From Polyangiaceae bacterium (GTDB taxonomy: Bacteria > Myxococcota_A > Polyangia > Polyangiales > Polyangiaceae): a stretch of DNA of 64,000 bases. Shown in pieces: positions 2,926 to 17,993 of this stretch (positions within the stretch are counted from its first letter, which is position 1; every line of letters starts with the position of its first letter). The position numbers and the translations under genes are program-made. The notes under the pieces were generated by a model. It was not told the DNA's origin. It ran no database searches and saw nothing but the letters and a program-made list of their open reading frames with translations. The stretch is taken from NCBI GenBank assembly GCA_016712345.1, contig JADJRH010000002.1, positions 200,466 to 264,465 on the forward strand, given 5' to 3'.

Positions 2926-3082
2926 GGCGCGTTCGGGGCGAAGAATACACGATTCACGGCGTCTCAAGGCGCAGAATCGTCGGGGGGCGTTGCGGGGGGC
3001 GTTGCCCCTCAAGAACGAGTGCCCGTTTGAGGCCCTCTCTCGTGTGAGAGTTCAGCCGGACCAGACCTTCAAAGATCAAGCC

Positions 3083-3517: not shown

Positions 3518-4071
3518 GGAATGGTCACTTTTTCGAACAAAGCACCTGTGCATCCGGCCTGTTCCAAGCGGTTCTTCAACTCCATAGAAACGATCATCTC
3601 AACGTAAGATCCCCACAATCTGAAACAGTGAACTGGTGGTGGAATCTGACTTGTATCTAAGACTAATTTCGTGATTGACCGGTACTGACCTGCCAGATCA
3701 GCGCGGTGATCACTGGCTGTCCATTTTGTAAATCGAGATTGATTCTCATCCACGCATCGAAGAACCCGAAGGACGTTAACTGCCATCATCTGCGCGGACT
3801 CACCTAGTACAATCGGTAGGATCTGAACGTCGTCCCCGGCGACCTCTCTAAAAATGGTCGCCAACTTAGGTGTTACAATCGGGACTCCGAAACTTGTCAG
3901 CGAAAAATCTAACCTGGCTCCCCGGTGATGTATCGGAGCTGACAATGGGGTTGTCAAATGCAAAGCAATTCCGCCCTTCAGATCAGGTTCGGCACCGTCG
4001 GAAAGAGTAACTTCGCCGATGTGCCATCGGTTCGAACTTCGCATGTCGTCGAAAACTTGAAAGTACATCAT
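3514..4071 (-). CDS. polymorphic-toxin immunity protein (Imm11/DUF1629-like)
   Basis: 185-aa ORF. Its ATG overlaps the toxin stop in an ATGA (4068-4071). The C-terminus ..FRLWGSYVEMIVSMELKNRLEQAGCTGALFEKV resembles the DUF1629/Imm11 tail. Its position directly 3' of an RHS toxin tip supports the call. Confidence 0.6.
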   Translation of the reverse strand: MMYFQVFDDMRSSNRWHIGEVTLSDGAEPDLKGGIALHLTTPLSAPIHHRGARLDFSLTSFGVPIVTPKLATIFREVAGDDVQILPIVLGESAQMMAVNVLRVLRCVDENQSRFTKWTASDHRADLAGQYRSITKLVLDTSQIPPPVHCFRLWGSYVEMIVSMELKNRLEQAGCTGALFEKVTIP

Positions 4072-5552
4072 GGTTGAGTCAGTAATTTGTTAAGATCTGA
4101 ACCAGGCGTACTTAGCTCTTTGCTCATTGCGTCGAGTTCAGATCGAAAGGCTTCCGCGTACCTATCGCCCGAAAGCCCTCGGGTTGCGCGTTCCAAACGC
4201 TGGGACACTTCGCGATGATATGCTTCCGAATGGGGCCCGCGGTGTCCTGGGACTCGCACTTTATTAATTGCGTCATCGAGAGTCATTCCGGCCTTTTCGG
4301 CCATTCTTTCGAACCGCTGCGTCCACGGACCACCGTTGGATGACGAAACACGGTTCTTGTTTGTCATGATATGGTGCACCTGTCCATCCCCACCTTTTGG
4401 CGCCGACATCCATGCGTTAATCCCCGCCAAAATGTTTCCCGCACCACCCACAACGCCGACGGTAGAAACGGCAATTGCCGGCACTCCAACTGCCGCACCT
4501 ACCCCGGTCACGGTCGCCGCCCCGCCGAAGATCTCCCCACCAAGCGACGTGGCCGTGGTGTACAAACCGCCGCCAATCATCCCAAGCGCCTTGCCGCGCT
4601 CAAAGTACACCGAACGGCGCTTTACCAAGCCTTCCGCAAGGGCCGCTTCTTCGGCCACCCCTGCACCGGGTACAATGCCCAATAGTGCCCCACTAAACCC
4701 GCCCGCGATTGTCTGAAGAACGGGATGATTATACCACGGCTCGTCTTCCGCTTCCTCGTCAGGTTCGGCGGTTATGTCTTCCGATCCCGTGCTGTCCACG
4801 TCGGTTTTCGGCTCACCTACCCCGTGTTCCGCTTCTTTCTTAGGTTTGTCTTCCGTCGGCGGCCCGGCCTTTGATCCCGGTACAGAAATCTCCACATACC
4901 CACTCGGGTCCACGGGTAGGGAAGGCTCGCGCTTAGGTTCGCCGTCAAATCCGCTTGGGTCAGTATAGGTCAGCGGATTATTGAAAACGTAACTGTAGGG
5001 GTTCCACGCCTGACTGAATGTCCAATTCTGAATGATGGGATCAGTGCTCAGAAACCTACCCAACTTGGGATCAAACATTCGCCCTTTCATGTTGACTAAA
5101 CCGATCTCCCCATCGTCTTCATGCCCCGTAAATCCAAGCGAAATCGAATCTGGAAAGCTCGCAGGTATAGGGGCGCCCCACTCGGGATTTCTCCGCCGGC
5201 CGAAGGCGTCGTAACTGCGCCGCTCGGTGACCTTCCCATCGGCGTCTGTGAGTACGTCCACCGATCCCAAATGATCCGCGTGCACATACGTTGTGCCTGG
5301 TTGATTACCTCCAAGCGTGACAATCGCGATCACGCGTTCAGGCGAGTGCACATAAAATCGCTCGGTGAGCGCGTTCGCGGCGTCTTTGACACGTTCGTAC
5401 AGGTCGGCGAAATAAAGCGTTTCGTGCGTTGCGGTTAGATCGAGAGTGAACCGCGCTTGCCTGCGCAAAACGGGCTTGCCGTGCTTTGGCTCGCCTTCCT
5501 CGGGATGGTCAGAAACCAACGCGGCACCTAACAAGGTTGCCAAGCCGCCCAA
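4068..5552 (-). CDS. orphan RHS C-terminal cassette: RHS core end + Gly-rich linker + HNH/EndoVII (AHH-type) nuclease toxin
   Basis: Contains ..THETLYFADLYER..HADHLGSVDVLTDADGKVTERRSYDAFGRRR..GFTGHEDDGEIGLVNMKGRMFDPKLGRFLSTDP..NNPLTYTDPSGF, the RHS core terminus. The tip reads ..GQVHHIMTNKN..PGHRGPHSEAYHREV, an HH..N..H..H pattern. The first in-frame start is TTG and there is no ATG. Confidence 0.8.
   Translation of the reverse strand: MGGLATLLGAALVSDHPEEGEPKHGKPVLRRQARFTLDLTATHETLYFADLYERVKDAANALTERFYVHSPERVIAIVTLGGNQPGTTYVHADHLGSVDVLTDADGKVTERRSYDAFGRRRNPEWGAPIPASFPDSISLGFTGHEDDGEIGLVNMKGRMFDPKLGRFLSTDPIIQNWTFSQAWNPYSYVFNNPLTYTDPSGFDGEPKREPSLPVDPSGYVEISVPGSKAGPPTEDKPKKEAEHGVGEPKTDVDSTGSEDITAEPDEEAEDEPWYNHPVLQTIAGGFSGALLGIVPGAGVAEEAALAEGLVKRRSVYFERGKALGMIGGGLYTTATSLGGEIFGGAATVTGVGAAVGVPAIAVSTVGVVGGAGNILAGINAWMSAPKGGDGQVHHIMTNKNRVSSSNGGPWTQRFERMAEKAGMTLDDAINKVRVPGHRGPHSEAYHREVSQRLERATRGLSGDRYAEAFRSELDAMSKELSTPGSDLNKLLTQP
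4926..5436 (-). repeat. RHS-core homology block, inverted copy of 24446-24955
   Basis: Direct comparison: aaccgcaacgcacgaaacgctttatttcgccgacctgta.. is shared, and about 94 percent identity was seen over the first 96 nt aligned by eye. Identity collapses after ..gatttgacggcgaacc.aagcg.gagcc. Confidence 0.85.
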
Positions 5553-5735
5553 AAATGCGCGTGGGTGATTTTGGTGGGTAGACGACCCGCGAAGATTGTG
5601 CCCTTTTCATGATGGGCGCCTCGTTCTGGGGGCGTTCACGCTTTGTGGCGAGCCAGTCAACCGTTTCGCGTTGCGCGAAGGCCACCCAAGGGCAATGATG
5701 GGTAGGTTGCGGGGGATCTACCCATGGTTGAGGGG

Positions 5736-7622
5736 CTACTTCGGCTCCGGCGGATCGTAGATTTTCTTTACGTCGGCACCGCCCACGAACGCGTACGAGC
5801 CGGCGCTTCCATACCCATAAGCGACAATTCCAAAGGGCTTGTCACCTGACAGGTTGTGGGCGCCTTCTTGGAGCGGGCAGCGACGGGTTTCATACTCCAC
5901 ACCGGCGAGGTTGCCGGCCGGTTGGGTAGAACATCCACCCGGGGAGGTGCCGTCAATGGAGACGTTGGTGCCCACTTCGGCAACGATGACGACCCAATTT
6001 TGGTTCCACGAGCCGGGGGTTAGAATAACATATTCTGTGCGGTATTGGTCAACCGGTGGGAAGACGGTGAGGGAAGGATCGCCGATGTACGCACCGTCGC
6101 AGTATTGATTGCTGACAAGGATCTGACCAATCATGACGGGGGTGTCGGAGGTGACAACCACGTCGCCCTGGGTCCAGGTGGTTTTGACTTCACCCGGTTG
6201 GAGGGTGAATTGGTTGAATGGGGCGGGGAGGGTAGTGGTGACGTTGGTGACTTCGGCGGCGCCGACAAACCGGAGGATGTCAGGTTCTTTAAAGCCGCCC
6301 GTGGAACGCACGGGGCTGCGGGGAATGACGTAGTTTTTACCGACCGATTCCACCGGGAAGAGTTGGTCTTCAAGGTGGTCAAGGCAGCAGGTGTTGTCGG
6401 TTGTCCAACCGGGTGGGGTGGGAATGTCCACAACGCCGCCGGGAGCACCTGTGCTTTCTACCCCGGAGAATACGGCCACCGGCGCGTTGGCCGTGACAAG
6501 GGTACCTGACAAGTCGGCAATGGTTTTTGGATCGTCTTGGAATGTGCCGTCGTCCGTTTCAAGGTTGAGCACGTCAAACGGGCCAATGGTAAGACTGATG
6601 TCGCCGCCGGCTGGTGTGGCTGCAACGGGGGGATTTCCCTTGATTCGCCAGCTGGGTTTTACTTTGACAACGGTGTTGGGGGTGGTGCCGACAATGGTGA
6701 CATACGAGCGATCGAGAATGTTGAACCCGCCGAATTTGACGGGGTGGCCGGCGGGCCAGCCGATTACGCGGTAATAGGTTCCAAGTGCGTTGGTGGGTAG
6801 AAGAAGCGACGCATCGTTGGAATACGCGTTTTCAAAAACGTTGAATTGGTAGACAACGATGGGCGCGCTTGACTTAATGCGGAATGCGCGCGAGGAGAGG
6901 CAGGTTCCAGGGGAGGCGTAGTCGTTGGGTTGGACGCCGCAGTCAAGTTCACGCGTGGGTAGAACAAGGGCGTACAAGGCCCCGGGGTTGACCTCGGCGT
7001 CGGCGACTTTTGAAAGCTGGAGGGGTTGCCCGGGAGCGGCTTCGTTGATCTCAATGGAGACAACGGCTTTGGTTTGGCCGGCGTTGGAAAGCGCGACACC
7101 CCACGGTGCACTGGCCGGATCGTTGAAGCCGTCTTGTTGGTCAAGGTCAACCGCCCAAAATTCACACCCAACGTTGGAAGGTTGACCTTCTGCCACAACA
7201 CATGCGCTGATGCAGGCGCCGTTGGAACACGTTAAGCCGAGGGCCGGATCGCAGGTTTCTACCGGGGTGGTGCCGATTGTACCTTGGTCGGTGCACTGGT
7301 AGACATCATTGCCGAGGCAGGTTTTTCCACCGGGGTAACAGTCCACACAACCGAGCTTGGGAGCGCACGCTTTGGGGCATGTTTCAGGTGTGCCCGGCGT
7401 GCCGTCGCTGTTGCATGGGATGTAGGAGCCGGCGTTGCAAATGTCGCAAACATCGGAGTTGCCTCCGATGCCGCCGTTGCCGCCGTTGTTGGATGAGGTG
7501 GACGCCCCCGCGCCGCCGCCGCCTGTGGTGTTATTTGGAGCGGCGGAACAACCGAATTGAGATGGCAAAAGCGCCAAGAATAAAAGGGAAGAAATGGGTA
7601 GTAGGGTACGGCTCGAACGCAT
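5736..7622 (-). CDS. secreted Cys-rich lipoprotein, IgGFc-binding-protein-N-terminal-like domain (tentative)
   Basis: ORF 5736..7772. The likely start is the ATG at 7622, giving MRSSRTLLPISSLLFLALLPSQFGCSAAP (lipobox). A Gly/Cys-rich EGF-like stretch follows, then ..GCEFWAVDLDQQDG.. and ..VVYQFNVFENAYSNDASLLLPTNALGTYYRVIGW... Confidence 0.55.
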   Translation of the reverse strand: MRSSRTLLPISSLLFLALLPSQFGCSAAPNNTTGGGGAGASTSSNNGGNGGIGGNSDVCDICNAGSYIPCNSDGTPGTPETCPKACAPKLGCVDCYPGGKTCLGNDVYQCTDQGTIGTTPVETCDPALGLTCSNGACISACVVAEGQPSNVGCEFWAVDLDQQDGFNDPASAPWGVALSNAGQTKAVVSIEINEAAPGQPLQLSKVADAEVNPGALYALVLPTRELDCGVQPNDYASPGTCLSSRAFRIKSSAPIVVYQFNVFENAYSNDASLLLPTNALGTYYRVIGWPAGHPVKFGGFNILDRSYVTIVGTTPNTVVKVKPSWRIKGNPPVAATPAGGDISLTIGPFDVLNLETDDGTFQDDPKTIADLSGTLVTANAPVAVFSGVESTGAPGGVVDIPTPPGWTTDNTCCLDHLEDQLFPVESVGKNYVIPRSPVRSTGGFKEPDILRFVGAAEVTNVTTTLPAPFNQFTLQPGEVKTTWTQGDVVVTSDTPVMIGQILVSNQYCDGAYIGDPSLTVFPPVDQYRTEYVILTPGSWNQNWVVIVAEVGTNVSIDGTSPGGCSTQPAGNLAGVEYETRRCPLQEGAHNLSGDKPFGIVAYGYGSAGSYAFVGGADVKKIYDPPEPK

Positions 7623-7740
7623 GAGGGTAGAGTGCCCGAGTGCGCGTGAGAAGTCAGTACGAAACGACCGACGCAGTGCGGTAACTGAGACGTCTCGCAA
7701 CGACCTGAAACGCCTCGCGACGACCTGACATGTTGTACTA

Positions 7741-7892
7741 AACACGGAGGCACGGACTACACGGAGGTTCACGGAGATTTTCTATATTTCGGGCTGCAAT
7801 GGATGTCAGAAACGTTGTTTGGAACCGCGTTCTGCGAGCCGATTGCAGCCCAACAAACAAAGAAACTCCGTGTTCCTCCGTGATTCCGTGTT
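7741..7892. repeat. palindromic intergenic element with CACGGAG iteron arrays (copy A)
   Basis: Left arm aaCACGGAGgCACGGActaCACGGAGgttCACGGAGattttctatatttcGGGCTGCAATgg. The right arm is its imperfect complement: ccgATTGCAGCCCaacaaacaaagaaaCTCCGTGttcCTCCGTGattCCGTGttg. A related copy lies at 55146-55321. Confidence 0.75.
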
Positions 7893-7961
7893 GAAATGGA
7901 CGGTTCAGTTGGAGAAACGCACCAGGTTCTTGCCGGGTGGCGTCAGTTACCCAGAAGGCCC

Positions 7962-8669
7962 TTAATTGGAAGTGGCGGCGGTTTCAGAAGGAGGAGGCGA
8001 GGATGGGGAGGTGGAAGGTGTATTCAAAGCGTCATTGGAGATTTCCCAAACGAGTTGAGTGTTGCCCTGCGCTCCGGCGAAGCGAATACCAAACCACTTG
8101 GCTTTTGTGGAAATGGTGGGGCGACCCTCGGCTGTGACGCGGGGAAAACGAATGCGAAACGCCTGTCGAAACACGTTATTGTAGGGGAAATAAGTGCGTT
8201 CAATGGCGTTTGGTTTTTTAATGAGTTGAATTTCTTCAGGCGCTGTTTCGTTGCCTGTGTCGTCGATGAGCCGAACGATCCATGCGCTGTCGGGGCGGGT
8301 CAGATCGTTGTAGCGGCGCTCGCCGCCGTAGATGGCCACGAAAAACTGGTGGCGGCGTTTGGTTTCATCGAGCGCTTTTTCAAGGAGTTTTTTGCGCTCA
8401 TCAATGGTGAGGCGGTAGTCCTGAACGTAGCGGACTGTGTACGCCCAGCGAAAATCCCACGATTCAAACGTGGCTGTCGCTGTGAGGAAGTTGTCGAGTT
8501 CGCTCAGCGAAAACAGGCGTTCGGTGCGGGTCCAATGGCGAAGCACCGATTCATAATCGGTGGCGACATATTCACGCGGGCCTTCTGCGAGCGATACCAA
8601 CTGCGGTGCGCAACCGCACGCAGCAAATGCTGACACGGCGACGGTAAGCGCGGTGGAGAGGCGAAACAC
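7962..8669 (-). CDS. hypothetical lipoprotein
   Basis: GTG start. The N-terminus FRLSTALTVAVSAFAACGC has a lipobox. The C-terminal tail is Pro/Ser-rich. Confidence 0.55.
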   Translation of the reverse strand: MFRLSTALTVAVSAFAACGCAPQLVSLAEGPREYVATDYESVLRHWTRTERLFSLSELDNFLTATATFESWDFRWAYTVRYVQDYRLTIDERKKLLEKALDETKRRHQFFVAIYGGERRYNDLTRPDSAWIVRLIDDTGNETAPEEIQLIKKPNAIERTYFPYNNVFRQAFRIRFPRVTAEGRPTISTKAKWFGIRFAGAQGNTQLVWEISNDALNTPSTSPSSPPPSETAATSN

Positions 8670-9434: not shown

Positions 9435-10514
9435 TTAACGCGACGAAGAGACGATTTTGGATCCTGGGGCACCTGCGCGGGCAAGCTTTTCTTCAACCAT
9501 GAGATCGGCCACGCGATACGTGGGAGTGAGTGTACTCATGCTTCGCTCGGCGATCTCGTGGATTGTGTCGTAGATCTTGAGGGTGCGGTCGCGCGAGATC
9601 GTGGCGTTGTACCCAACCACTTCTTGAGCAACGTTGATGAGGCCGCCCGCGTTGATGGCGTAATCGGGCGCGTACAAAATGCCTCGTTGATTGAGGTCGT
9701 CGCCGTGGCGAGGCTCGTGGAGCTGATTGTTGGCCGCGCCGGCCACGATTTTGGCTTTGATGCGCGGTACAGTTTCATCGTTGATGGCCGAGCCGAGCGC
9801 GCATGGGGCGAGCACGTCACATTCAATTTCAAAGATGTGGTCGAGCGGCACGATGTCGGCGCCAAACTCGCGCTGCGCGCGTTCGCTCTTGAGCGGATCC
9901 ACATCGGCCACGCTGAGCTTTGCGCCGCACGCCGCCAGCTCTTTGCAGAGGTGGTAACCCACGTGTCCAACGCCCTGAACCGCCACGTGCAGGCCTTCGA
10001 GTGAAGAGCGACCGAGTTTGAGTTGGGCGCACGCTTCAATTCCCCTTCGAACGCCGAGCGCTGTGAACGATGAGGGATCGCCCGAACCTCCATTTTTCAC
10101 ATCGACACCGGTCACGTGTTTTGTTTCGTGACGAATCAGCTCCATGTCTTCAAGGCCGGTGCCCGAGTCTTCGGCCGTGATGTACCGACCCCCAAGCGCA
10201 TCTACAAATCGCCCGAAAGCAAGGAAAAGAGCGGCCCTGTCAAACACCGGAGCGGCGGGTCGCAAGAGTACACTTTTGCCACCGCCGTGAGGTACACCTG
10301 CGAGCGCGGCCTTGTAAGTCATGCCGCGCGCGAGACGCAGCGCGTCAACCAATGCCTCCTCTTCTCGGGCGTATGCGAGGAAGCGACAACCTCCAAGCGA
10401 AGGGCCCAATCGAGTGTCGTGAATGGCAACAATGGCGCGCATTCCGCTCGCTGGATCTCGGCGAAAATGCACTTCGCCGTAATCGTAGGAGGCGAGGTGT
10501 GAAAAGACGTCCAT
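9435..10514 (-). CDS. Glu/Leu/Phe/Val dehydrogenase family (leucine/phenylalanine dehydrogenase-like)
   Basis: From the ATG at 10514: MDVFSHLASYDYGEVHFRRDPASGMRAIVAIHDTRLGPSLGGCRFL..GMTYKAALAGVPHGGGKSVLL and the Rossmann motif VAVQGVGHVGYHL. The track ORF extends upstream to 10667. Confidence 0.85.
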   Translation of the reverse strand: MDVFSHLASYDYGEVHFRRDPASGMRAIVAIHDTRLGPSLGGCRFLAYAREEEALVDALRLARGMTYKAALAGVPHGGGKSVLLRPAAPVFDRAALFLAFGRFVDALGGRYITAEDSGTGLEDMELIRHETKHVTGVDVKNGGSGDPSSFTALGVRRGIEACAQLKLGRSSLEGLHVAVQGVGHVGYHLCKELAACGAKLSVADVDPLKSERAQREFGADIVPLDHIFEIECDVLAPCALGSAINDETVPRIKAKIVAGAANNQLHEPRHGDDLNQRGILYAPDYAINAGGLINVAQEVVGYNATISRDRTLKIYDTIHEIAERSMSTLTPTYRVADLMVEEKLARAGAPGSKIVSSSR

Positions 10515-10728
10515 GGGTTTCCCTGTGCGTTGTGTGAGAGCGACTTGTTTGCGTGCCTCGTTACCACAGTGCGTCGTTTGGTGCGGTGGTTTGAGTGCGC
10601 AAAAAGTCTTTTTTTCAGGGCTCCGCGCGTCGGCGGAAGAGCAGCCGGTGATATAAGTGAACGTCATCGATCAACGCGTGGGCACTCCGCGCGGTGAGCA
10701 AAAAACTTAGAAGAAGGGTTCATCGGCG

Positions 10729-12582
10729 ATGCGGACCAAAATCATTCCGAGCGCACTGTTCCTGACCGCTCTCGCAGCGGTCGGATGCGGTGACGGCGGG
10801 GAGAGTTCCACGGGAGGAACCACCTCCACGACCCCGTCCAAACCACCCACCGTTGTCGATATTGTTGTCGACGCCAATCGCGATGGGAAACTCGATCCGG
10901 CCGATCCCGCCGATCAAGACAAAGAAAACGAATGGAGCGTCGACAGCGGCGCGTCGTTTTTGGCAAACCTCGATGACGACGACGCGGACAAGTTTCGCGA
11001 CGTAGACGACCAGATCATCAACGGGCCGGATGATGAACTCGACCTGGCGAAGATGCAGCTCGTCGCGTGGCCCGACGCTCCCGACGGTGCGCTTGGTGTA
11101 CTCCATATCGATCCGATGAGCGCCCAGAACATTCGCCTCTGGAAAAAGGGGCTCGACGGCGCTTGGTGGCTCGTCGGTGGCAACGTCGGTCCCTGCAACG
11201 AAGTGGATCCGGCGTGCACGGTGACACCCGACGTAACGTTTCCAATCGAAGAAGTGCGCGCGGGGCTCACGCTCGGGATCGAAGCGCGTTTCTTCCGTCG
11301 CTCACTTGCGCCTGAGGCGTGGACGGGCATTGTGCAGCTCGGCTATCAGGTAAACGACAAAGACGGTGCGCCGATCACCGACGACAACATTCCCGATGGG
11401 CTTGATCAGGCCAAAATTCGCGTTGCCCCGTGGATGTTGTTTGGCAACCTTTCTCCTTTTGATCGCGTTTGGTCCAACAACGTAATGCCGGCATTTGTGT
11501 CGGGTCTTTCAACGCTGTCGACGGAAGCGGGCGTTACCTACAAGAAGATCACCAACTGGCAGGATCACTGGACTCAAGACTATTTCCAAACGGGGTACAC
11601 AACGATCCCGGTTGAAAACGGCGCCGTTCAAGGCATGCGCATCGCCAACGCAAGGCCGTGGGGTCGCTGCGACTCGCCTTCGTGTTGGCCGATCAACTGG
11701 CTCAAAAAAGGGTATTTGTCGCCCGGAAACGGTGTGATCGAGATCTACAACAAGCCCAATACGGGTTCGACGTACGACTCGCATGGCAACCACGATCTGC
11801 TGCCTCCGTATGAAAACGGAGAATCAAAATATCCCTTTGGTCGCATCGCAATCGGCTCAGGTGTACTCAAAGAAACCAAAGATTTTTACGCTGCGCAGGA
11901 GGTTCAAGGCCCGCCGATCATCGTGAAAACGTCGTGGCTCTACGTGGGTCACATCGACGAAGTATTCAGTTATGTGCCCGCGAACACGCCGCGCGGGTGG
12001 AAGCTTTTGGTAGGTTCACCCAAGCTCGCAAAGTCCATGCTTGAGGCGGCTCAAGCGGCCGGACACGGCGCGGTGACCATGTTTAAAGGGCAAAAGTGGT
12101 ACACCGAAAATGGCAGTCTCATAGACGCCGAAGTTTCAATTGACGAGGTGCTCGCCAATCAAGATCTGCTTGCTGCGTCGCAAGAAGCGCAAGGCGAGAT
12201 CGACGACATGATTGCCCAACTAAAAGAAGAGGTGGGTCTGGCGGACGACGAGATCGTCGAAATGCCGTATCTGCTCCAAGACCTCTTTGGGCAGAAGGTC
12301 GCCTTTAACCCGGGCACGGCCAACATGCTTGTTGTGGCCGACCACTTGGGCATTCCCAAACCGTGGGGCCCCGTTATCGACGGTGCCGACATTTTCGAAA
12401 CCGATCTTGAAGAGCGCCTTGGAGCACCGGGCCAAAACCTCGGATCCGACGGCAACGGTCTTATCGTTCACTTCATCGACGACTGGGAGTGGTACCACGC
12501 GCTCGACGGTGAGGTGCATTGCGGCTCCAACGTGGATAGCGTGCCGCCCGCGGATCAAACTTGGTGGAAGGTGTTGAAATGA
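10729..12582 (+). CDS. eukaryote-type protein-arginine deiminase (PAD, PF03068-like) with lipoprotein signal
   Basis: MRTKIIPSALFLTALAAVGCGD carries a lipobox. Matches to PAD active-site blocks are WTQDYFQTGY, ..SWLYVGHIDEVFSYVPANTPRGWKLLVGSPK.., and the C-terminal ..DDWEWYHALDGEVHCGSN with the catalytic Cys. Confidence 0.88.
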   Translation: MRTKIIPSALFLTALAAVGCGDGGESSTGGTTSTTPSKPPTVVDIVVDANRDGKLDPADPADQDKENEWSVDSGASFLANLDDDDADKFRDVDDQIINGPDDELDLAKMQLVAWPDAPDGALGVLHIDPMSAQNIRLWKKGLDGAWWLVGGNVGPCNEVDPACTVTPDVTFPIEEVRAGLTLGIEARFFRRSLAPEAWTGIVQLGYQVNDKDGAPITDDNIPDGLDQAKIRVAPWMLFGNLSPFDRVWSNNVMPAFVSGLSTLSTEAGVTYKKITNWQDHWTQDYFQTGYTTIPVENGAVQGMRIANARPWGRCDSPSCWPINWLKKGYLSPGNGVIEIYNKPNTGSTYDSHGNHDLLPPYENGESKYPFGRIAIGSGVLKETKDFYAAQEVQGPPIIVKTSWLYVGHIDEVFSYVPANTPRGWKLLVGSPKLAKSMLEAAQAAGHGAVTMFKGQKWYTENGSLIDAEVSIDEVLANQDLLAASQEAQGEIDDMIAQLKEEVGLADDEIVEMPYLLQDLFGQKVAFNPGTANMLVVADHLGIPKPWGPVIDGADIFETDLEERLGAPGQNLGSDGNGLIVHFIDDWEWYHALDGEVHCGSNVDSVPPADQTWWKVLK

Positions 12583-13511
12583 GCCGCAACAAAACGTCAC
12601 TTTGGGGTCTTGTGTTGGGAGCCGCCGTGGTTGCCCTTTCGGGTAGCGCGCGCGCCGACGGCATTGCACTCAGTGCGGCTGAACTTCCTTCACAAGTAAA
12701 GCAATCGCTCGCCAAAGATGTGGCGGCGTACAAAGCCGCGCACGCGGCCGATTTTAAGCCTGTGCGCGACGTGCAGGGCATTAAGCCCGATGTGTACAAA
12801 GCCTATCGAAACCCGCAGCCCGTTGCGGTGCTCGAGCTGAAACGCCTCGGTGCGGGCGCGCTCTTGCCCATGCTTGACGTGCTTGCTCTCGACGCCCCCG
12901 CGCTGACGTTGAGCGACAAAGAAAAAACAGCGTACATCGTCGGCCTGCTTGAAGCTTCGAGCGCGCTTCGCGATGCCCGCAGTGGGCCTGTGTACACAGC
13001 GATCTTTGAGGCGAAAAACAAGCCGAATGATGTGCTGCGTGCCGCGGCGGAGGCTCTCGGGCGCGTGTGCGGCGATGCCGAACTTGGCACCCTCAAGAAA
13101 CACACCGCCGCAGGTGATGCGTTGCGTACACATGCTATTCGCGGTCTGTCGCAGTGCCGTCGCAAAGAAGGTGTGGAGCACCTCGCAACACTTCTCGGCG
13201 CCGCATCCGATGCCGCTTCGGCTGAGCCCATCGCCGACGCTCTCGGGCTCGCGTCGTCGAGCTGGGCGTGGAAAGCCATGGGAGCCAAAAGCGCGGCGGC
13301 AGCCAAAGACGTTCAGCAAATTGCCGCGAAGGCGCTCATCACTTCGTTCGTGAAGCACAAAGACGCGCGCCCGGCGGCTCGAAAAGCCCTCAAGTTGGTT
13401 GAGTCTCCCGATGCGGTCACGCTCATCGCGGCGGCTCGAACAAGCGCCGACGCAGTCACACAGAGCGCGCTTGACGAACTCGCCAAAGCCGTCACCCCCG
13501 CTACCAAGTAG
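12579..13511 (+). CDS. secreted alpha-helical (HEAT/ARM-like) repeat protein, translationally coupled to PAD
   Basis: The ATG at 12579 overlaps the PAD TGA in an ATGA. Signal peptide MSRNKTSLWGLVLGAAVVALSGSARA. The body is Ala/Leu-rich helical repeats. Confidence 0.55.
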   Translation: MSRNKTSLWGLVLGAAVVALSGSARADGIALSAAELPSQVKQSLAKDVAAYKAAHAADFKPVRDVQGIKPDVYKAYRNPQPVAVLELKRLGAGALLPMLDVLALDAPALTLSDKEKTAYIVGLLEASSALRDARSGPVYTAIFEAKNKPNDVLRAAAEALGRVCGDAELGTLKKHTAAGDALRTHAIRGLSQCRRKEGVEHLATLLGAASDAASAEPIADALGLASSSWAWKAMGAKSAAAAKDVQQIAAKALITSFVKHKDARPAARKALKLVESPDAVTLIAAARTSADAVTQSALDELAKAVTPATK

Positions 13512-13525
13512 ATAACGGCCAATAG

Positions 13526-13552
13526 GCACAGCGCGTATTCTTTGCGCTGTGC
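13526..13552 (+). terminator. hairpin downstream of 12579-13511 (possible terminator)
   Basis: gcacagcgc-gtattcttt-gcgctgtgc, a 9-bp stem 15 nt after the stop. No clear U-tract. Confidence 0.3.
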
Positions 13553-13828
13553 TCAGCCCCAATCCTGATCAGTTAAGACAAGAAAGCCTTCTCTCTGTGA
13601 GGTTTGGCGGCTCCTGCCGCCTGGTAGCTACCTGCCGACGGCCCCGCCGAATTCACGTTTTCGTCGCGGCTGCATTCGCAGGAAACACGTTATGGAGAAG
13701 GCTTTCGCGCCGCGCTTTTCGCTTTCTCGCTCGGCAGCGGGCAAGGGTGTCCGAAACGTCGCGACGACCCTGACTCCGGGCTTCGCTGAAACGTTTCGAC
13801 TGCTTAAGATCCGACCTATGAACCCGGA

Positions 13829-14830
13829 TTAGCGATCTTCGATCGTCATTGCGCTCTTGAGCGCGTCTTTGTTCGGCCGAACATCAAAGTTAAATCCAAT
13901 GTTCATTCTGCCCGCGTAATACGACTCCACGTCGCCGCGCAGCGGTGTTGTCACCGGGAACAAGAAACTCAGCGCCGGCTGAATGCGAGGCAGCATTAAT
14001 CGAATGCTCGGCGACACGGCAAATGCCGCTCGATTGTCGTCGTTGGCGAGTTCCTTTGTCACCTCGTAAACCTCCCACAACTCCACGCCGATACCGAGCC
14101 ACTCACTCAACCGGTAGCCCATGTAAAACGTGAGCCGCGCCGTGAAATTGGTAATTCGAGGATTGCTTCCCGACGGTGTACCCCCCGGGATTTCTTCGGG
14201 ACCGTTAAGGGAGATCGACCAATCAATGCCTTGTCGAAGCTGAAAAATAAGCCCTGAAACAACGTGCCGAATGTCGATCCACGGCCTAAACGTGAGCGTC
14301 AAACTGGAGAAACTCGCCAGATCCCACGGCTTCACCGTGCGCACTGTGCGCAGCACTTCGGTTTCAACAGGAGAAAGTGCGCGCGGCGTGGGGAGCACAA
14401 TGCCAAGCCCGCCGCCCGACGAAAGGCCTCGACTGGAGGACCACAAGCCTCGTCCGCTGATCTCAGGGTTTCCAAGCAAAAAAGCGGTGCCAACGCCGGG
14501 CAGAGCCGCCGCCGCAATATCGTTTGAAAGGCCTATAAACCACTGCCGCGGAACAATCGGATATTCGGCATCGGTGTGCATGAAGTACGCAAACGCATCA
14601 CCGGATCGGTCTTGATCTTTGGGCTGAATCACCGCGGCTGTCAGCTCAAAGTTAAACGTCAGATCGCGGTGAGCGAGCGCTGGCAACGTCGGCGGGGCAG
14701 GCGCATCCAACACACTTTTCAAGTCGTCCCCGGAGCCGTTGAGCGCCGACTGCGCAAGAACAGATTCTGCGCGGAGAACAACCAACAGAAACAAACCGGC
14801 CGAGAAAACCCGGCCCAACGTGGAAGTCAC
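13829..14830 (-). CDS. hypothetical secreted/outer-membrane-like protein
   Basis: The GTG start overlaps the rseP stop in a GTGA. Signal peptide ..FSAGLFLLVVLRAESVLAQS. Alternating beta-like segments. Confidence 0.5.
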   Translation of the reverse strand: MTSTLGRVFSAGLFLLVVLRAESVLAQSALNGSGDDLKSVLDAPAPPTLPALAHRDLTFNFELTAAVIQPKDQDRSGDAFAYFMHTDAEYPIVPRQWFIGLSNDIAAAALPGVGTAFLLGNPEISGRGLWSSSRGLSSGGGLGIVLPTPRALSPVETEVLRTVRTVKPWDLASFSSLTLTFRPWIDIRHVVSGLIFQLRQGIDWSISLNGPEEIPGGTPSGSNPRITNFTARLTFYMGYRLSEWLGIGVELWEVYEVTKELANDDNRAAFAVSPSIRLMLPRIQPALSFLFPVTTPLRGDVESYYAGRMNIGFNFDVRPNKDALKSAMTIEDR

Positions 14831-15951
14831 TTCTTTCCGAGAATGTCGTTGAACACGGTCACATAGCCCATCAACCCGAGCAGCATGATGAGCCCAACAC
14901 CGTGAATGACAGCTTCAATACGGGGGTTGGCGCGACGCCGCGTTGCGGCTTCGTACGTGAGAAAAATGAGCCGACCGCCGTCGAGAGCCGGAAATGGAAT
15001 GAGATTAAACGCTCCCAAATAGGCCGACAAAGCAGCCAAAAACTCGATGAAATCGGCCCAACCACCTTCAGCCGCGGCGGCCGTTTGTTCAACCATCGCT
15101 TTGGGACCGCCAAGCTCTTTTACCGAGCCTTCGTGTACCCATTTTTTCAGATTGATAAACAGCTCGGCAACCACCATTGCCGGTTGCTCAAACGCCTGGA
15201 TCGCAGCCTCTTTCATGGTCATCGGGATGCGCTCTCGAAAGAGCCCAACACCGATTCGACCTTTGCCTTCTTCGTTTGCGGGGGTGACCGTGATGGTGAC
15301 GCGCTCCCCTTTTCGCATCACGTCCACGGAGATTTTTTCTGCGGGGTGTTTCGAGATGTTTTCGGCCATTTTTGACCACGTTGAAACCTCAACACCCGCA
15401 ACGTTCACCACTTGATCGCCGTCTTTGAACCCCGCGAGCATGGCAGGTTTTCCAGGCAGAACACCGATGATCGTTGACTCGCGCTCCACATGGCGCCCGA
15501 CTGCTGCGTACACACCAAAAAACACCAGCGCAGCAAACACGTAGTTGGCAAGCGGCCCCGCAAAGATCGCCGCGATCCGGCCTGTCACGCTCGCGTTTGC
15601 GTAACTGCCTTTGTCCTTTGGATCCACCTCTTCGAGTGGATTCATCCCGGCGATTTGCACGTACGCGAGGAATGGAATGGCCGCGACCTGAAACACTGTC
15701 GGCCCATGTTTTTCGGGCACGTGTTTCCACAGCCGCAGTCTCACTTTGCCCGCCGCCGTTGTGAACCAGTAATGGCCGTCTTCGGGCACAATCTTGAAGA
15801 TCGTTGGGCCGAACCCGATCGAGAACTTGATCACGCGCATGCCGTAGGCGCGGGCGGCGAAGAAGTGGCCGCCTTCGTGCACGATCATGAGCAAGGCGAG
15901 GCCGAGAGCACCGATGAGGTACTTGAACCAAGGGGGCATCGAGCGGAGCAT
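14827..15951 (-). CDS. rseP: RIP (site-2) zinc metalloprotease RseP family
   Basis: MLRSMPPWFKYLIGALGLALLMIVHEGGHFFAARAYGMRV contains HExxH. A PDZ-like middle follows, then ..FNLIPFPALDGGRLIF.. (the LDG motif). Confidence 0.85.
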   Translation of the reverse strand: MLRSMPPWFKYLIGALGLALLMIVHEGGHFFAARAYGMRVIKFSIGFGPTIFKIVPEDGHYWFTTAAGKVRLRLWKHVPEKHGPTVFQVAAIPFLAYVQIAGMNPLEEVDPKDKGSYANASVTGRIAAIFAGPLANYVFAALVFFGVYAAVGRHVERESTIIGVLPGKPAMLAGFKDGDQVVNVAGVEVSTWSKMAENISKHPAEKISVDVMRKGERVTITVTPANEEGKGRIGVGLFRERIPMTMKEAAIQAFEQPAMVVAELFINLKKWVHEGSVKELGGPKAMVEQTAAAAEGGWADFIEFLAALSAYLGAFNLIPFPALDGGRLIFLTYEAATRRRANPRIEAVIHGVGLIMLLGLMGYVTVFNDILGKK

Positions 15952-16793: not shown

Positions 16794-17993
16794 TTATTCA
16801 ACGCGGGCACACCCATCTTGCTCAAATGCCAAAATCCGCGCCCGACCAACTATCCCGCCCTGAACTTGCCGAAAACGTTGCTCATACACCCGTTCATACA
16901 GCTTGGCTTGGCCGTCGCCTTTGAGCGGGATTGCCTTGGGAATGATCCCCGCGATTCGAAACGGGCATACCCACGTTTTTGGATTTTCTGTATTGGAAAA
17001 AACAATGCGGGCCAAAAACCCTATTTCAGTGGCCAAGTGCTCTCGATGTGTACGCATTAGAAAATTACCAATGCTATAAAAAATGGGCTTGCCTTTGTAC
17101 ACTTCAATCCCCTGCGAAAGATGGGGGTGGTGCCCAATCACCGCATCGGCCCCGGCGTCAATCGCCGCGTGGTGTAGGTCAATCGCGCGCTGAAGAGGCA
17201 CGCTCACATATTCTTCCCCTCCATGGTAACTTACCACCACGGGGGCTCCGTTGCCGGCTGTTTTAGCTGCCTTTACTGCCGAGCTGACTGCCTCTTTACC
17301 GGCCTCCGCCACGTAATCTTTGGCTGCGTGAACCTTGAGTGCGCCTTGGTTCCATATATCTGTAAACGCCAAAATGCCCAGCTTAAACCCGTTTACTTCT
17401 ACCCATGCGGGCGAATAAGCCTGCTCCCGATTTCTACCCGCTCCGGCATATTTCACCCCCGCCCGCTCCAGATTTTCAAGCGTTTCTAAAAAGGCCCGCT
17501 GCCCATAATCCCACATGTGATTGTTCGCGAGCGACACCACACCCACCTTGCCAAGTTGCAGCGCCCTCGCTCCACCGGGCGGACCTGTAAACACCAGCTT
17601 TTGGGTAGGTGATTGAGTTTCCCCTTTTTGGTCAGACAATTGACTTTCTAAATTGACAAATCTCACGTCCGCCGTGGCCAGGAGTTCTGCCACCGACTCA
17701 AACGGGTTAAAGTCGGGATTTTTTAAAATCTCCTGCCCAATCGATCTACCCATGCAAACGTCGCCGCCGAAAATAACAGAAGCCGAGGAGGCGGCCGGCG
17801 GTGCAAGGTTGCTTTCAGCGGTTGAGGAAGCCGTGGGTACAACCGCAGCGCTCGTTTCTCCACGTTGGCCATGGGTAGACAAGGCGCTCGACGACAACGT
17901 CTCAGACGTTTCATCCGTGGCAGATGAGCCCGAAGAACACCCCAGAACAAGGGCCACACCGACGGTCCAAATTCTCCAACCGGTGAAACGCAT
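16794..17993 (-). CDS. CapA family (PGA_cap metallophosphatase-like) lipoprotein
   Basis: Lipobox VALVLGCSSG. CapA-type blocks are VIFGGDVCMGR, VNLESQLS, LANNHMWDYG, VVSYHGGEEY and GADAVIGHHPH. Confidence 0.75.
   Translation of the reverse strand: MRFTGWRIWTVGVALVLGCSSGSSATDETSETLSSSALSTHGQRGETSAAVVPTASSTAESNLAPPAASSASVIFGGDVCMGRSIGQEILKNPDFNPFESVAELLATADVRFVNLESQLSDQKGETQSPTQKLVFTGPPGGARALQLGKVGVVSLANNHMWDYGQRAFLETLENLERAGVKYAGAGRNREQAYSPAWVEVNGFKLGILAFTDIWNQGALKVHAAKDYVAEAGKEAVSSAVKAAKTAGNGAPVVVSYHGGEEYVSVPLQRAIDLHHAAIDAGADAVIGHHPHLSQGIEVYKGKPIFYSIGNFLMRTHREHLATEIGFLARIVFSNTENPKTWVCPFRIAGIIPKAIPLKGDGQAKLYERVYEQRFRQVQGGIVGRARILAFEQDGCARVE

What the first reader, a model, noticed from the sequence alone, without database searches (positions are those of the whole stretch)
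10729..13511. Eukaryote-type protein-arginine deiminase exported as a lipoprotein and coupled to a secreted helical-repeat partner
Seen: the 617-aa protein matches vertebrate PAD active-site blocks nearly residue for residue. The blocks are SWLYVGHIDEVFSYVP (compare WLSVGHVDEFLSFVP), WTQDYFQTGY, and the terminal GEVHCGSN with the catalytic Cys. It begins with a lipobox signal (LAAVGCGD) and a Asp-rich N-domain (DANRDGKLDPADPADQD). The next gene overlaps it in an ATGA (12579-12582) and also has a signal peptide. Established: this PAD family is chiefly animal. Bacterial members are rare, and from memory a bacterial origin of animal PADs has been proposed. It is unrelated to the Porphyromonas PPAD family. 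Inference: this would be an extracytoplasmic citrullinating enzyme with a dedicated partner or substrate, which would be unusual biology for a bacterium.
Basis: partly seen in the sequence, partly recalled or inferred. Interest (0 to 1): 0.6.

Follow-up and report, generated by a model that had tools for sequence, protein, structure and literature searches.

The report
Lipid-anchored bacterial PAD with obligate partner
A myxobacterial genome encodes an exported, lipid-anchored relative of the human citrullinating enzymes (PADs), always paired with a small secreted helical-repeat protein; the enzyme family is already known in bacteria, but I found no report of this fixed pairing.

Summary
ORF 10729-12582 is a full-length PAD-family deiminase (Pfam PF03068, E 5e-77). 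Its catalytic residues D284/H408/D410/C598 are intact, and it has a lipobox signal (Cys20). Its stop overlaps the start of a second exported ORF in an ATGA. The interpretation needs correcting. This is not a "eukaryote-type" rarity. It is the bacterial two-domain PAD type (PAD_M-like plus PAD_C, no PAD_N). That type is already in the literature and is common in Myxococcota: 561 hits in species-representative genomes.

What I found no report of:
- The lipobox is conserved in essentially all Myxococcota homologues.
- The 310-aa partner is an obligate neighbour. It lies next to the PAD in 76 of 80 genome loci. A PAD lies upstream of the partner in all 47 testable metagenome loci. No other neighbour is conserved.
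- The partner is a Sec-exported HEAT-like solenoid. Its only invariant residue across 51 diverse members is Arg77, in a loop.

Best reading: an outer-membrane-anchored, Ca-dependent citrullination module. The partner probably binds the enzyme and may present Arg77 to the active site as regulator, pseudosubstrate or substrate. Activity, localisation and binding are all untested.

The parts
10729..12582 (+). PAD-family lipoprotein gene (617 aa; NCBI MBK8255154.1, IPK82_21145, annotated 'hypothetical protein')
   Evidence: ORF. Pfam PF03068 E 5.4e-77. PDB PAD3/4/1/2 E 1e-52 to 1e-39. AF2 model pLDDT 87, TM 0.75 to hPAD4/3/1/2 over about 600 columns. Identity of the record.
10729..10788 (+). Signal peptide with lipobox: MRTKIIPSALFLTALAAVG-C20. 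R2 and K4 form the n-region; LFLTAL|AA|V|G|C fits the PROSITE PS51257 pattern.
   Evidence: Sequence. The same pattern occurs in 68 of 78 homologous loci and is visible by eye in most of the rest. The +2 residue is G/S/A and never K.
10789..10854 (+). Gly/Ser/Thr/Pro-rich tether (aa 21-42, GDGGESSTGGTTSTTPSKPPTV)
   Evidence: AF2 pLDDT is below 50 for residues 1-35. The equivalent region varies in length and composition in homologues.
10855..11403 (+). PAD_M-like calcium-binding Ig domain (aa about 43-225), carrying the acidic cluster D48, R51, G53, N80, D82, D83, D84, D91, D94, D102, D105, E185
   Evidence: All these residues are invariant in 69 of 69 aligned PADs. PF08527 (PAD_M) is detectable in 12 of 24 close homologues, though not in the window protein itself. 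The structural match to PAD4 covers this domain. A phmmer stretch to PAD6 starts at query residue 44 and chain residue 117.
11404..12579 (+). PAD_C catalytic (pentein) domain, aa 226-617. Catalytic codons: D284 (11578-11580), H408 (11950-11952), D410 (11956-11958), C598 (12520-12522).
   Evidence: Pfam. Residue-by-residue alignment to human PAD3. Invariant in 69 of 69.
12579..12582 (+). ATGA overlap of the PAD stop and the partner start (translational coupling)
   Evidence: An ATGA or GTGA sits at the PAD stop in at least 55 of 76 related loci, and it is the chosen partner start in 44 of them.
12579..13511 (+). Partner gene: 310-aa exported HEAT-like repeat protein (NCBI MBK8255155.1, IPK82_21150, 'hypothetical protein')
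12579..12656 (+). Partner Sec-type signal peptide (aa 1-26, predicted cleavage ARA|DG)
   Evidence: Sequence. Conserved n/h/c-region pattern in the partner alignments. Hydrophobic N-terminus in 137 of 140 family representatives.
12807..12809 (+). Codon of partner Arg77, in the loop 74-83 between helices
   Evidence: It is the only invariant column in 51 diverse partners, whose mean column identity is 36%. It is R in 134 of 140 50%-cluster representatives. Loop assignment comes from the AF2/DSSP summary.

Best explanation
This is a two-gene extracytoplasmic citrullination module of Myxococcota.

Gene 1 encodes a two-domain PAD (PAD_M-like calcium-binding domain plus PAD_C catalytic domain, no PAD_N). 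It is exported by Sec, lipidated at Cys20, and held on a flexible tether. By the M. xanthus sorting rule it is sent to the outer membrane. There, in a calcium-rich compartment, it converts peptidyl-arginine to citrulline.

Gene 2 is translationally coupled to gene 1. It encodes a periplasmic or secreted HEAT-like solenoid that is a dedicated subunit of the enzyme. It most likely binds the PAD and presents its invariant Arg77 loop to the active site. In that role it could be a pseudosubstrate cap or regulator, or the enzyme's first or dedicated substrate.

Shown here: family membership, intact catalytic and calcium-site residues, export signals, strict two-way co-occurrence, co-diversification, and the partner's fold.

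Inferred: lipidation, outer-membrane location, calcium dependence, enzymatic activity, physical binding, and any role of Arg77.
For: - Enzyme: PF03068 E 5e-77. The catalytic tetrad aligns to human PAD3 and is invariant in 69 of 69 family members. So is the PAD_M acidic cluster. Its spacing D91/D94/D102/D105 reproduces PAD4 D165/D168/D176/D179 (PAD4 ligand list from memory). The fold matches PAD4/3/1/2 at TM 0.75.
- Export: a PS51257-type lipobox in 68 of 78 loci, with +2 never Lys. In M. xanthus, +2 Lys means inner-membrane retention, +7 Ala means extracellular matrix, and anything else means outer membrane (PMC3222651). The window protein has +2 Gly and +7 Ser.
- Partner dependence: a partner homologue is adjacent in 76 of 80 genome loci spanning PAD identities of 30-79% in Polyangia and Myxococcia. 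It is downstream in 73 and upstream in 3. In the reverse test, a PAD lies upstream in all 47 metagenome loci with enough DNA, and no orphan partner was seen.
- No other neighbour is conserved in more than 15 loci.
- An ATGA or GTGA overlap occurs in at least 55 of 76 loci.
- PAD and partner distance matrices correlate at r = 0.82, and the four-cluster partitions agree at ARI 0.83. In the MAG that carries both L002 and L050, each PAD and its partner fall in the same major cluster as each other.
- The partner is a discrete family: 318 representatives at E<=1e-30, nearly all 290-340 aa, with a sharp gap to generic HEAT proteins.
- Arg77 is the only invariant residue. It sits in a Gly/Asn/Pro-rich loop with variable, hydrophilic flanks, and there is no equally invariant acidic residue to pair with it.
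Against: - No biochemical or localisation data exist for any member. I found no paper on myxobacterial PADs.
Binding and the docking of Arg77 are therefore untested.
- The loop carrying Arg77 is modelled with high confidence (block pLDDT 92), so the arginine could instead be structural.
- Mirror-tree correlation is expected for any two vertically inherited neighbours.
- Three loci (L029, L033, L071) have lipobox PADs without an adjacent partner.
- The window protein has Gly at the position aligned to the PAD Ca4/switch Asp388, where 61 of 69 relatives have Asp. Its calcium regulation may therefore differ.
Confidence: 0.45

Rival explanations
1. Effector-immunity pair. The PAD is a lipoprotein toxin delivered to prey or competitors, for example by outer-membrane vesicles or outer-membrane exchange. 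The exported partner is the cognate immunity protein that blocks its active site in the producer's own periplasm.
For: The genes are tightly adjacent and translationally coupled, with enzyme first and a small binder second. Both products are exported to the same compartment. Several genomes carry two or three cognate pairs that have diversified together: L002/L050, L051/L062 and L057/L065. An invariant Arg in a loop would suit an active-site plug. Myxobacteria are predators that move lipoproteins between cells (my background knowledge).
Against: No orphan partner genes were found in 47 testable loci. No conserved delivery, secretion-system or mobile-element genes lie nearby. The family has ordinary local base composition in the window, and its catalytic and calcium-site residues are conserved across the Myxococcota loci examined. 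That looks more like a housekeeping module than a polymorphic toxin. A true arginine plug would itself be deiminated.
Confidence: 0.2
2. The partner is a chaperone, adaptor or scaffold that stabilises or positions the PAD without touching the active site. It might functionally replace the missing PAD_N, or tether the enzyme to a target structure. Arg77 would be structural.
For: HEAT-like solenoids are generic protein-binding scaffolds; the closest folds are alphaRep, YibA and CpcE/F. The Arg77 loop is confidently ordered in the model. Other well conserved positions are typical HEAT-repeat core residues: G128, D132, P137, L172, L202.
Against: Arg77 lies outside the repeat motif, in the N-terminal extension. 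Its flanks are variable and hydrophilic, and no invariant acidic residue is available to pair with it. That is unusual for a purely structural arginine.
Confidence: 0.2
3. The enzyme does not modify folded proteins. It deiminates free arginine, arginine-containing peptides or exported arginine-rich natural products such as RiPPs or antimicrobial peptides. This would serve nitrogen scavenging, detoxification or maturation. The partner would be only loosely related.
For: The one bacterial PF03068 PAD with a demonstrated substrate, from Streptomyces albulus, acts on a lasso peptide encoded elsewhere in the genome (Harris et al. 2020). An exported enzyme would meet peptides and secreted products.
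Against: The strict two-way co-occurrence and co-diversification with the partner are not explained. No RiPP or other biosynthetic genes are conserved nearby.
Confidence: 0.1
4. The two genes merely share an operon and have unrelated functions.
For: Nothing specific. The HEAT_2 hit of the window partner is below Pfam's cut-off, and no function is annotated.
Against: Adjacency in 76 of 80 and 47 of 47 loci across a phylum, with both gene orders observed. Every other neighbour varies. One record carries an in-frame fusion ORF (P0281).
Confidence: 0.03

Closest known systems
Two-domain bacterial/fungal PADIs (Cummings et al. 2021, PMC8826395), including the Streptomyces albulus PAD that makes citrulassin (Harris et al. 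2020, bioRxiv 10.1101/2020.07.16.207027)
   Same: Same Pfam family. Same architecture: N-terminal export signal, then a (D/A)xNRDG...NxDDD calcium-binding PAD_M-like domain, then PAD_C, with no PAD_N. The Ca2-site ligand is lost (E351 aligns with Y285; F/Y/W/I/H in the family), as those authors report for this type. The Myxococcus and Chondromyces PADs are already in their tree.
   Different: Here the export signal is a lipobox, conserved across the Myxococcota loci examined. The linker strand reads RVAPWMLFGN, without the triple-His motif described for the actinobacterial/fungal type. A dedicated partner gene is fixed next to the PAD, whereas Harris et al. describe bacterial PAD contexts as 'highly diverse'. 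The window's Polyangiaceae clade is only 33-39% identical to the Myxococcus-type PADs.
Human PAD1-4 / PADI (PDB 7d4y, 1wd8, 5hp5, 4n20)
   Same: Same fold over PAD_M plus PAD_C (TM about 0.75, 25-28% identity). Catalytic Asp/His/Asp/Cys and Trp347 are identical. The PAD_M acidic calcium cluster is conserved.
   Different: No PAD_N cupredoxin domain. Exported and lipid-anchored rather than cytosolic or nuclear. The Ca2 ligand is absent. The window protein has Gly at the Asp388 position. It is encoded with an obligate partner.
Porphyromonas gingivalis PPAD (Pfam PF04371)
   Same: A functional analogue: a bacterial, exported, outer-membrane-associated peptidyl-arginine deiminase of the pentein superfamily.
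   Different: A different family, with no PF04371 hit here. PPAD is calcium-independent (Harris et al. 2020); that it is T9SS-secreted and acts on C-terminal Arg is from my own memory. No partner is known.
PBS-lyase-type HEAT-like repeat proteins (alphaRep designs, E. coli YibA, CpcE/CpcF)
   Different: The partner carries a Sec signal peptide. It has an N-terminal, non-repeat extension of about 80 residues with the invariant Arg77 loop and a conserved SSWAW motif. It forms a discrete family, found next to a PAD wherever the flanking DNA allowed a test.
Periplasm-acting effector-immunity pairs and myxobacterial lipoprotein toxins (SitA/SitI); comparison from memory
   Same: Gene order and coupling (enzyme, then small cognate binder). 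The enzyme is a lipoprotein. Several diversified cognate pairs can occur in one genome.
   Different: No polymorphic C-terminal toxin architecture. No orphan immunity genes were seen. No association with delivery or mobile genes. The catalytic core is conserved across the phylum.

Membership tests
Protein-arginine deiminase family (Pfam PF03068, PAD_C) | Full-length match to the family HMM above the curated cut-off | tested here: met
   259.8 bits against a cut-off of 25, covering profile positions 5-395 of 395.
Protein-arginine deiminase family (Pfam PF03068, PAD_C) | Catalytic Cys, His and two Asp (PAD4 C645/H471/D350/D473; PAD3 C646/H470/D350/D472) at aligned positions | tested here: met
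   C598/H408/D284/D410 in the phmmer alignment to PAD3. Invariant in 69 of 69 relatives.
Protein-arginine deiminase family (Pfam PF03068, PAD_C) | Calcium-dependent conversion of peptidyl-arginine to citrulline | not testable with these tools
   Needs an enzyme assay. The acidic ligand cluster of PAD_M and the Ca1 positions (Q283; Q287, E in 47 of 69; D356, E in 45 of 69) are conserved. That conservation is only suggestive.
Three-domain animal/cyanobacterial PADI ('eukaryote-type') | N-terminal PAD_N (PF08526) cupredoxin domain | tested here: not met
   No PF08526 hit in the window protein or in 24 relatives, even at E<=1. Only about 22 disordered residues lie between the lipobox Cys and the start of the PAD_M-like domain.
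Three-domain animal/cyanobacterial PADI ('eukaryote-type') | Ca2 site ligands (PAD4 E351, D369, S370, N373) | tested here: not met
   E351 aligns with Y285; the family has F/Y/W/I/H there. The 369-374 loop is replaced by ANARPWGR with an insertion. The ligand list is from memory of Arita et al. 2004.
Two-domain bacterial/fungal PADI (Cummings et al. 2021) | A divergent PAD_M domain followed by PAD_C, without PAD_N | tested here: met
   The structural match to PAD4 spans both domains. PF08527 hits occur in 12 of 24 relatives. A phmmer stretch to PAD6 begins at query residue 44 and chain residue 117.
Two-domain bacterial/fungal PADI (Cummings et al. 2021) | Triple-histidine motif in the strand linking PAD_M and PAD_C (actinobacterial/fungal signature) | tested here: not met
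   The window has RVAPWMLFGN. Streptomyces and fungal sequences have APLLTHHH or APVLLHHH, and Myxococcus has APVVLFHH. The window clade is therefore a separate branch of the two-domain type.
Bacterial lipoprotein (PROSITE PS51257 lipobox) | Positively charged n-region, uncharged h-region, then [LIVMFWSTAG](2)-[LIVMFYSTAGCQ]-[AGS]-C with the Cys at about position 15-35 | tested here: met
   MRTKIIPSA-LFLTAL-AA-V-G-C20. The same pattern is found in 68 of 78 homologous loci.
Bacterial lipoprotein (PROSITE PS51257 lipobox) | Actual diacylglyceryl modification, signal peptidase II cleavage, and membrane location | not testable with these tools
   Needs globomycin sensitivity, palmitate labelling or fractionation. 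Outer-membrane sorting is inferred from the absence of +2 Lys.
HEAT-like repeat proteins (Pfam HEAT_2 / HEAT_PBS), for the partner | Match to the repeat HMM above the cut-off | tested here: inconclusive
   The window partner scores 21.6 bits against a cut-off of 27.7. 44 of 51 family members match HEAT_2 at E<=0.01, the best at 4e-13.
HEAT-like repeat proteins (Pfam HEAT_2 / HEAT_PBS), for the partner | Alpha-solenoid of paired antiparallel helices | tested here: met
Toxin-immunity (effector-immunity) gene pair | Adjacent cognate genes, with the immunity protein located in the compartment where the toxin acts | tested here: met
   Adjacent and coupled, and both products carry export signals.
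Toxin-immunity (effector-immunity) gene pair | Orphan immunity genes, and linkage to delivery systems or mobile elements | tested here: not met
   0 orphans in 47 testable partner-seeded loci. No further conserved neighbour.
Toxin-immunity (effector-immunity) gene pair | Toxicity of the enzyme, neutralised by the partner | not testable with these tools
   Needs expression and competition experiments.

The most novel reading that the evidence does not exclude
The HEAT-like partner is a natural protein regulator or dedicated substrate of a PAD, docking its invariant Arg77 into the active site. That would make this the first defined enzyme-partner citrullination switch in a bacterial envelope. 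More broadly, export may be the ancestral state of PADs. In the few sequences I read, the two-domain bacterial and fungal members carry signal peptides or lipoboxes and the three-domain cyanobacterial ones do not. If so, the puzzlingly high calcium requirement of cytosolic animal PADs would be a legacy of an extracytoplasmic origin.
Probability: 0.3. Interest if true: 0.75.

Novelty: new variant of a known kind. Interest (0 to 1): 0.55.

Why it matters
Bacterial relatives of human PADs have been catalogued and used to argue that animals acquired citrullination from bacteria. What these enzymes do in bacteria is essentially unknown; only one substrate, a lasso peptide, has been shown.

A conserved, obligate, co-translated partner with a single invariant arginine gives a concrete and cheap experimental handle. 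The two proteins can be co-expressed and tested for binding, inhibition or citrullination at Arg77. The pair can be deleted in Myxococcus xanthus, which is genetically tractable.

If the partner modulates activity, it would be a natural protein regulator of a PAD. That would interest a field that seeks PAD inhibitors and activators.

The export signals also place bacterial citrullination outside the cytoplasm. This bears on how PAD calcium dependence evolved.

On the practical side, both genes are annotated 'hypothetical protein'. The M. xanthus and C. apiculatus PAD sequences used in the published alignment begin after the point where related loci carry an export signal.

Tried and rejected
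- NCBIfam gave no hit for either protein.
- A sequence search of the PDB with the partner gave nothing meaningful: best E 0.72, to a glutamate racemase.
- The afdb50 fold library was unavailable, so I could not see which organisms hold partner-like folds.
- The diverse partner alignment A3 was too divergent for the locus scan, so A2 was used instead.
- The word-indexed search with A3 added few members and no taxon names.
- The promoter and terminator scan of 10300-14000 found nothing above the shuffled expectation.
- Literature searches for myxobacteria plus PAD or citrullination found nothing relevant. The one apparent hit was a reference-list entry about free-arginine deiminase.
- The 801-aa ORF P0281 fuses partner to PAD in frame but keeps an internal signal peptide and lipobox. 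It may be a gene-call or assembly artefact, so I treat it as weak support only.
- I considered a pseudoenzyme and rejected it: all catalytic residues are invariant.
- I considered recent horizontal acquisition and found no compositional sign of it: GC is 0.55-0.60 throughout the window.
- The window holds no second PAD-partner pair.
- I did not build a phylogeny with animal and cyanobacterial PADs.
Full report
**1. The observation**

Pfam's PAD model (PF03068) matches residues 226-614 over almost its whole length, at E 5.4e-77 and 259.8 bits against a cut-off of 25. The closest solved structures are human PAD3, PAD4, PAD1 and PAD2, at E 8e-52 to 3e-39.

The residue-by-residue alignment to human PAD3 aligns the catalytic residues as follows:

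| Human PAD3 | Window protein |
|---|---|
| D350 | D284 |
| H470 | H408 |
| D472 | D410 |
| C646 | C598 |
| W347 | W281 |

The protein begins MRTKIIPSALFLTALAAVG-C20. This fits the PROSITE lipoprotein pattern. The PAD stop and the next start share ATGA at 12579-12582. The next ORF (12579-13511, 310 aa) opens with a Sec-type signal peptide ending ARA|DG.

The window is part of a 738-kb contig of a Polyangiaceae MAG. Both genes (IPK82_21145 and IPK82_21150) are annotated 'hypothetical protein'. No NCBIfam model hits them.

**2. What kind of PAD it is**

The protein has no PAD_N domain. After Cys20 comes a Gly/Ser/Thr/Pro tether of about 22 residues, disordered in the AF2 model (pLDDT below 50 for residues 1-35). 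The chain then starts directly with VDANRDG...FLANLDDDD.

The AF2 model (pLDDT 87) superposes on human PAD4, PAD3, PAD1 and PAD2 at TM about 0.75 over about 600 columns. [quoted passage not shown] Pfam PAD_M (PF08527) is detectable in 12 of 24 close homologues, though not in the window protein itself.

In an alignment of 69 PADs from related loci, the following are invariant:
- the catalytic tetrad;
- the acidic cluster D48, R51, G53, N80, D82, D83, D84, D91, D94, D102, D105 and E185.

The spacing N80/D82/D84 and D91/D94/D102/D105 reproduces PAD4 N153/D155/D157 and D165/D168/D176/D179. These are the Ca3-5 ligands as I recall them from Arita et al. 2004.

The Ca2 ligand E351 aligns with Y285, and relatives have F/Y/W/I/H there. 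This agrees with the reported loss of Ca2 in two-domain PADIs. The position of the calcium-switch Asp388 is Gly in the window but Asp in 61 of 69 relatives.

This is therefore the bacterial two-domain PADI type described by Cummings et al. 2021 (PMC8826395), not a 'eukaryote-type' enzyme. It lacks the triple-His linker motif of the actinobacterial and fungal branch.

**3. How rare it is**

It is not rare.
The best 80 are almost all Myxococcota: Polyangiaceae, Labilithrix, Polyangium, Myxococcaceae, Archangium and Pyxidicoccus.
- The 5.8-billion-protein search returned 256 hits among the candidates it scored. One is a Minicystis rosea protein named 'PAD type III'.
- Harris et al. 2020 catalogued 837 bacterial PF03068 proteins.
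- Cummings' trees include the M. xanthus DK1622 and Chondromyces apiculatus PADs. These branch with Streptomyces mobaraensis, next to the clade that holds the animal and cyanobacterial PADs.

**4. Export is the rule**

A formal lipobox pattern is present in 68 of 78 homologous loci with a complete N-terminus. Most of the remaining ten show a lipobox by eye or are cut by a contig end.

The +2 residue is G (37), S (15), A (6) or another residue, and never Lys. In M. xanthus, +2 Lys marks inner-membrane lipoproteins, +7 Ala marks matrix lipoproteins, and the rest go to the outer membrane (PMC3222651). The window protein has +2 Gly and +7 Ser, so an outer-membrane location is the inference.

Reading Cummings' 50-sequence alignment gave these N-termini:

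| Sequence | N-terminus |
|---|---|
| Nocardia brasiliensis PAD | MAYRRFCLLAGVAAVALSGCSAP (a lipobox) |
| Several Streptomyces PADs | signal-peptide-like |
| Two fungal PADs | signal-peptide-like |
| Three-domain cyanobacterial PADs (Stanieria, Cyanothece 7424) | no signal peptide |

The M. xanthus and C. apiculatus entries there start at MVDLRADVNRNG. That point lies downstream of the lipobox seen in related loci (L037: MSSKRFVALVVVVVAFGCEKP). Those sequences therefore probably miss the export signal. Neither paper mentions signal peptides or lipoproteins.

**5. The partner is obligate**

*Forward test.* I built a profile from 24 partner homologues (A2) and searched all ORFs of the 80 genome loci. 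A partner is adjacent in 76 loci: immediately downstream in 73 and immediately upstream in 3. Of the four loci without a partner, one contig ends 230 nt after the PAD. This holds for PAD identities from 79% down to 30%.

*Reverse test.* I seeded 60 metagenome loci with the partner. A PAD gene lies upstream in all 47 loci that have enough upstream DNA. The other 13 contigs end at the partner's start. No orphan partner was seen.

*Other evidence.*
- Clustering all flanking ORFs shows no other gene shared by more than 15 loci. The unit is exactly two genes, set in variable contexts.
- The PAD stop overlaps an ATG or GTG (ATGA or GTGA) in at least 55 of 76 loci.
- PAD and partner distance matrices correlate at r = 0.82. 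Four-way clusterings of the two proteins agree at ARI 0.83.
- One MAG carries two pairs, L002 and L050. In each, the PAD and its partner fall in the same major cluster as each other, and the two pairs fall in different clusters.
- One locus has two tandem PADs followed by one partner (L060).
- One database ORF fuses partner and PAD in frame but keeps an internal lipobox (P0281). I treat this as weak support only.

**6. What the partner is**

The family is discrete:
- An exhaustive profile search of 1.84 billion representatives gave 318 proteins at E<=1e-30, nearly all 290-340 aa.
- The word-indexed search shows a gap from E 1e-48 straight to generic HEAT proteins at 1e-17.
- Nearly all members have a Sec-type signal peptide: a hydrophobic N-terminus in 137 of 140 representatives, and few have a lipobox.

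The most striking feature is Arg77.
- In an alignment of 51 diverse partners (mean column identity 36%), the only invariant column is Arg77.
- It is Arg in 134 of 140 representatives.
- It lies in the loop 74-83 between helices, within the motif [KR]-R-[GN]-[PR]. This is RNP in the window's clade and KRGR in the Myxococcus-type clade.
- Its flanks are variable and hydrophilic, and no equally conserved acidic residue is available to pair with it.

**7. Mechanism**

Shown:
- an intact PAD active site and calcium-ligand cluster under strong conservation;
- export signals on both proteins;
- a strict, coupled, co-diversifying gene pair;
- a protein-binding fold for the partner.

Inferred:
- The PAD is lipidated and sorted to the outer membrane on a flexible tether. 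There, ambient calcium can satisfy a PAD's high calcium demand, and the enzyme citrullinates extracytoplasmic proteins or peptides.
- The partner is made in step with the enzyme and binds it.
- Because the family's single invariant residue is an arginine in a turn-forming loop, I think it most likely enters the PAD active site. It could be a pseudosubstrate cap or regulator, or a dedicated substrate.

I put about 0.85 on 'active exported deiminase' and about 0.85 on 'partner functionally dedicated to the PAD'. The full composite statement, including engagement of the active site by Arg77, I put at about 0.45. The role of Arg77 is a lead, not a result. The loop is modelled as ordered (block pLDDT 92), so the arginine could be structural.

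Rivals:
- an effector-immunity pair used in predation or competition, which fits the gene logic but not the absence of orphan partners or of delivery and mobile genes;
- a chaperone or adaptor that does not touch the active site;
- an enzyme acting on small peptides, in the manner of the citrulassin PAD;
- mere operon sharing, which the two-way co-occurrence effectively excludes.

**8. Comparison and novelty**

The enzyme is a member of a known family and of its known two-domain bacterial branch. Myxobacterial members already appear in published trees.

Not reported in anything I could find:
- the conserved lipoprotein nature;
- the obligate HEAT-like partner;
- the partner's invariant arginine.

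Harris et al. explicitly describe the genomic contexts of bacterial PADs as highly diverse.

I therefore rate this as a new variant of a known kind, of moderate interest. It does not overturn anything. It does turn the open question 'what do bacterial PADs do?' into a two-protein experiment. It also suggests that export may be ancestral for this enzyme family.

Noticed in passing
Cummings et al. 2021 supplementary file 9, compared with loci L031, L035 and L037: The M. xanthus DK1622 and Chondromyces apiculatus PAD sequences used in the published alignment start at MVDLRADVNRNG. Related loci have an upstream in-frame start with a signal peptide and lipobox (for example L037: MSSKRFVALVVVVVAFGCEKP). 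Those published sequences probably miss the export signal.
   Followed up: partly
Cummings et al. 2021 supplementary file 9: In the sequences I read, the two-domain actinobacterial PADs (Nocardia lipobox ALSGC; Streptomyces signal peptides) and the fungal ones (Madurella, Stachybotrys) begin with export signals. The three-domain cyanobacterial PADs (Stanieria, Cyanothece 7424) do not. Export may correlate with the absence of PAD_N. Only a handful of sequences were read.
   Followed up: partly
L060:2982-8041: Two tandem PAD genes (2982-4841 and 4878-7106) are followed by a single partner gene (7103-8041).
   Followed up: no
L029, L033 and L071: Three lipobox-bearing PADs (a second PAD of a Labilithrix MAG, Myxococcaceae GXIMD 01537, and Pyxidicoccus caerfyrddinensis) have no partner homologue within about 6 kb. 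The partner may be encoded elsewhere or dispensable for these paralogues.
   Followed up: partly
protein P0281 (801 aa, metagenomic): A single called ORF joins a partner (residues 1 to about 310) in frame to a PAD that keeps its own signal peptide and lipobox (…AAAVACGGG…). It could be a read-through fusion, a lost stop codon, or an assembly or gene-call artefact.
   Followed up: partly
L052 and L061 (PAD N-terminal regions): Some PADs carry very long Gly/Thr-rich tandem-repeat tethers (TGGGTTGTGGG…, AGGTGGTAGGNV…) between the lipobox and the PAD_M-like domain. This suggests a variable reach from the membrane.
   Followed up: no
window 5736-7772 (-): A 678-aa exported, Cys-rich protein with an IgGFc_binding domain (PF17517, E 6e-61) and a lipobox-like N-terminus (…PSQFGCSAAP).
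   Followed up: no
window 9435-10667 (-): A Glu/Leu/Phe/Val dehydrogenase-family gene (PF02812 and PF00208) is transcribed divergently from the PAD gene, with only 61 nt between the two start codons. This neighbour is not conserved in related loci.
   Followed up: partly
window 14827-15951 (-) and 16794-17993 (-): An M50 site-2 protease with a PDZ domain (RseP-like), and a PGA_cap (CapA-like) protein with a lipobox-like N-terminus (LVLGCSSGSS). They are part of a run of envelope and exported proteins around the PAD pair.
   Followed up: no
L134, L137 and L138 (metagenome loci): These are the most divergent pairs recovered: partner about 25% identical, PAD at E about 1e-95 to the profile. They keep the PAD-then-partner order. 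Their taxonomic origin is unknown, and they might extend the module beyond the sampled Myxococcota.
   Followed up: no
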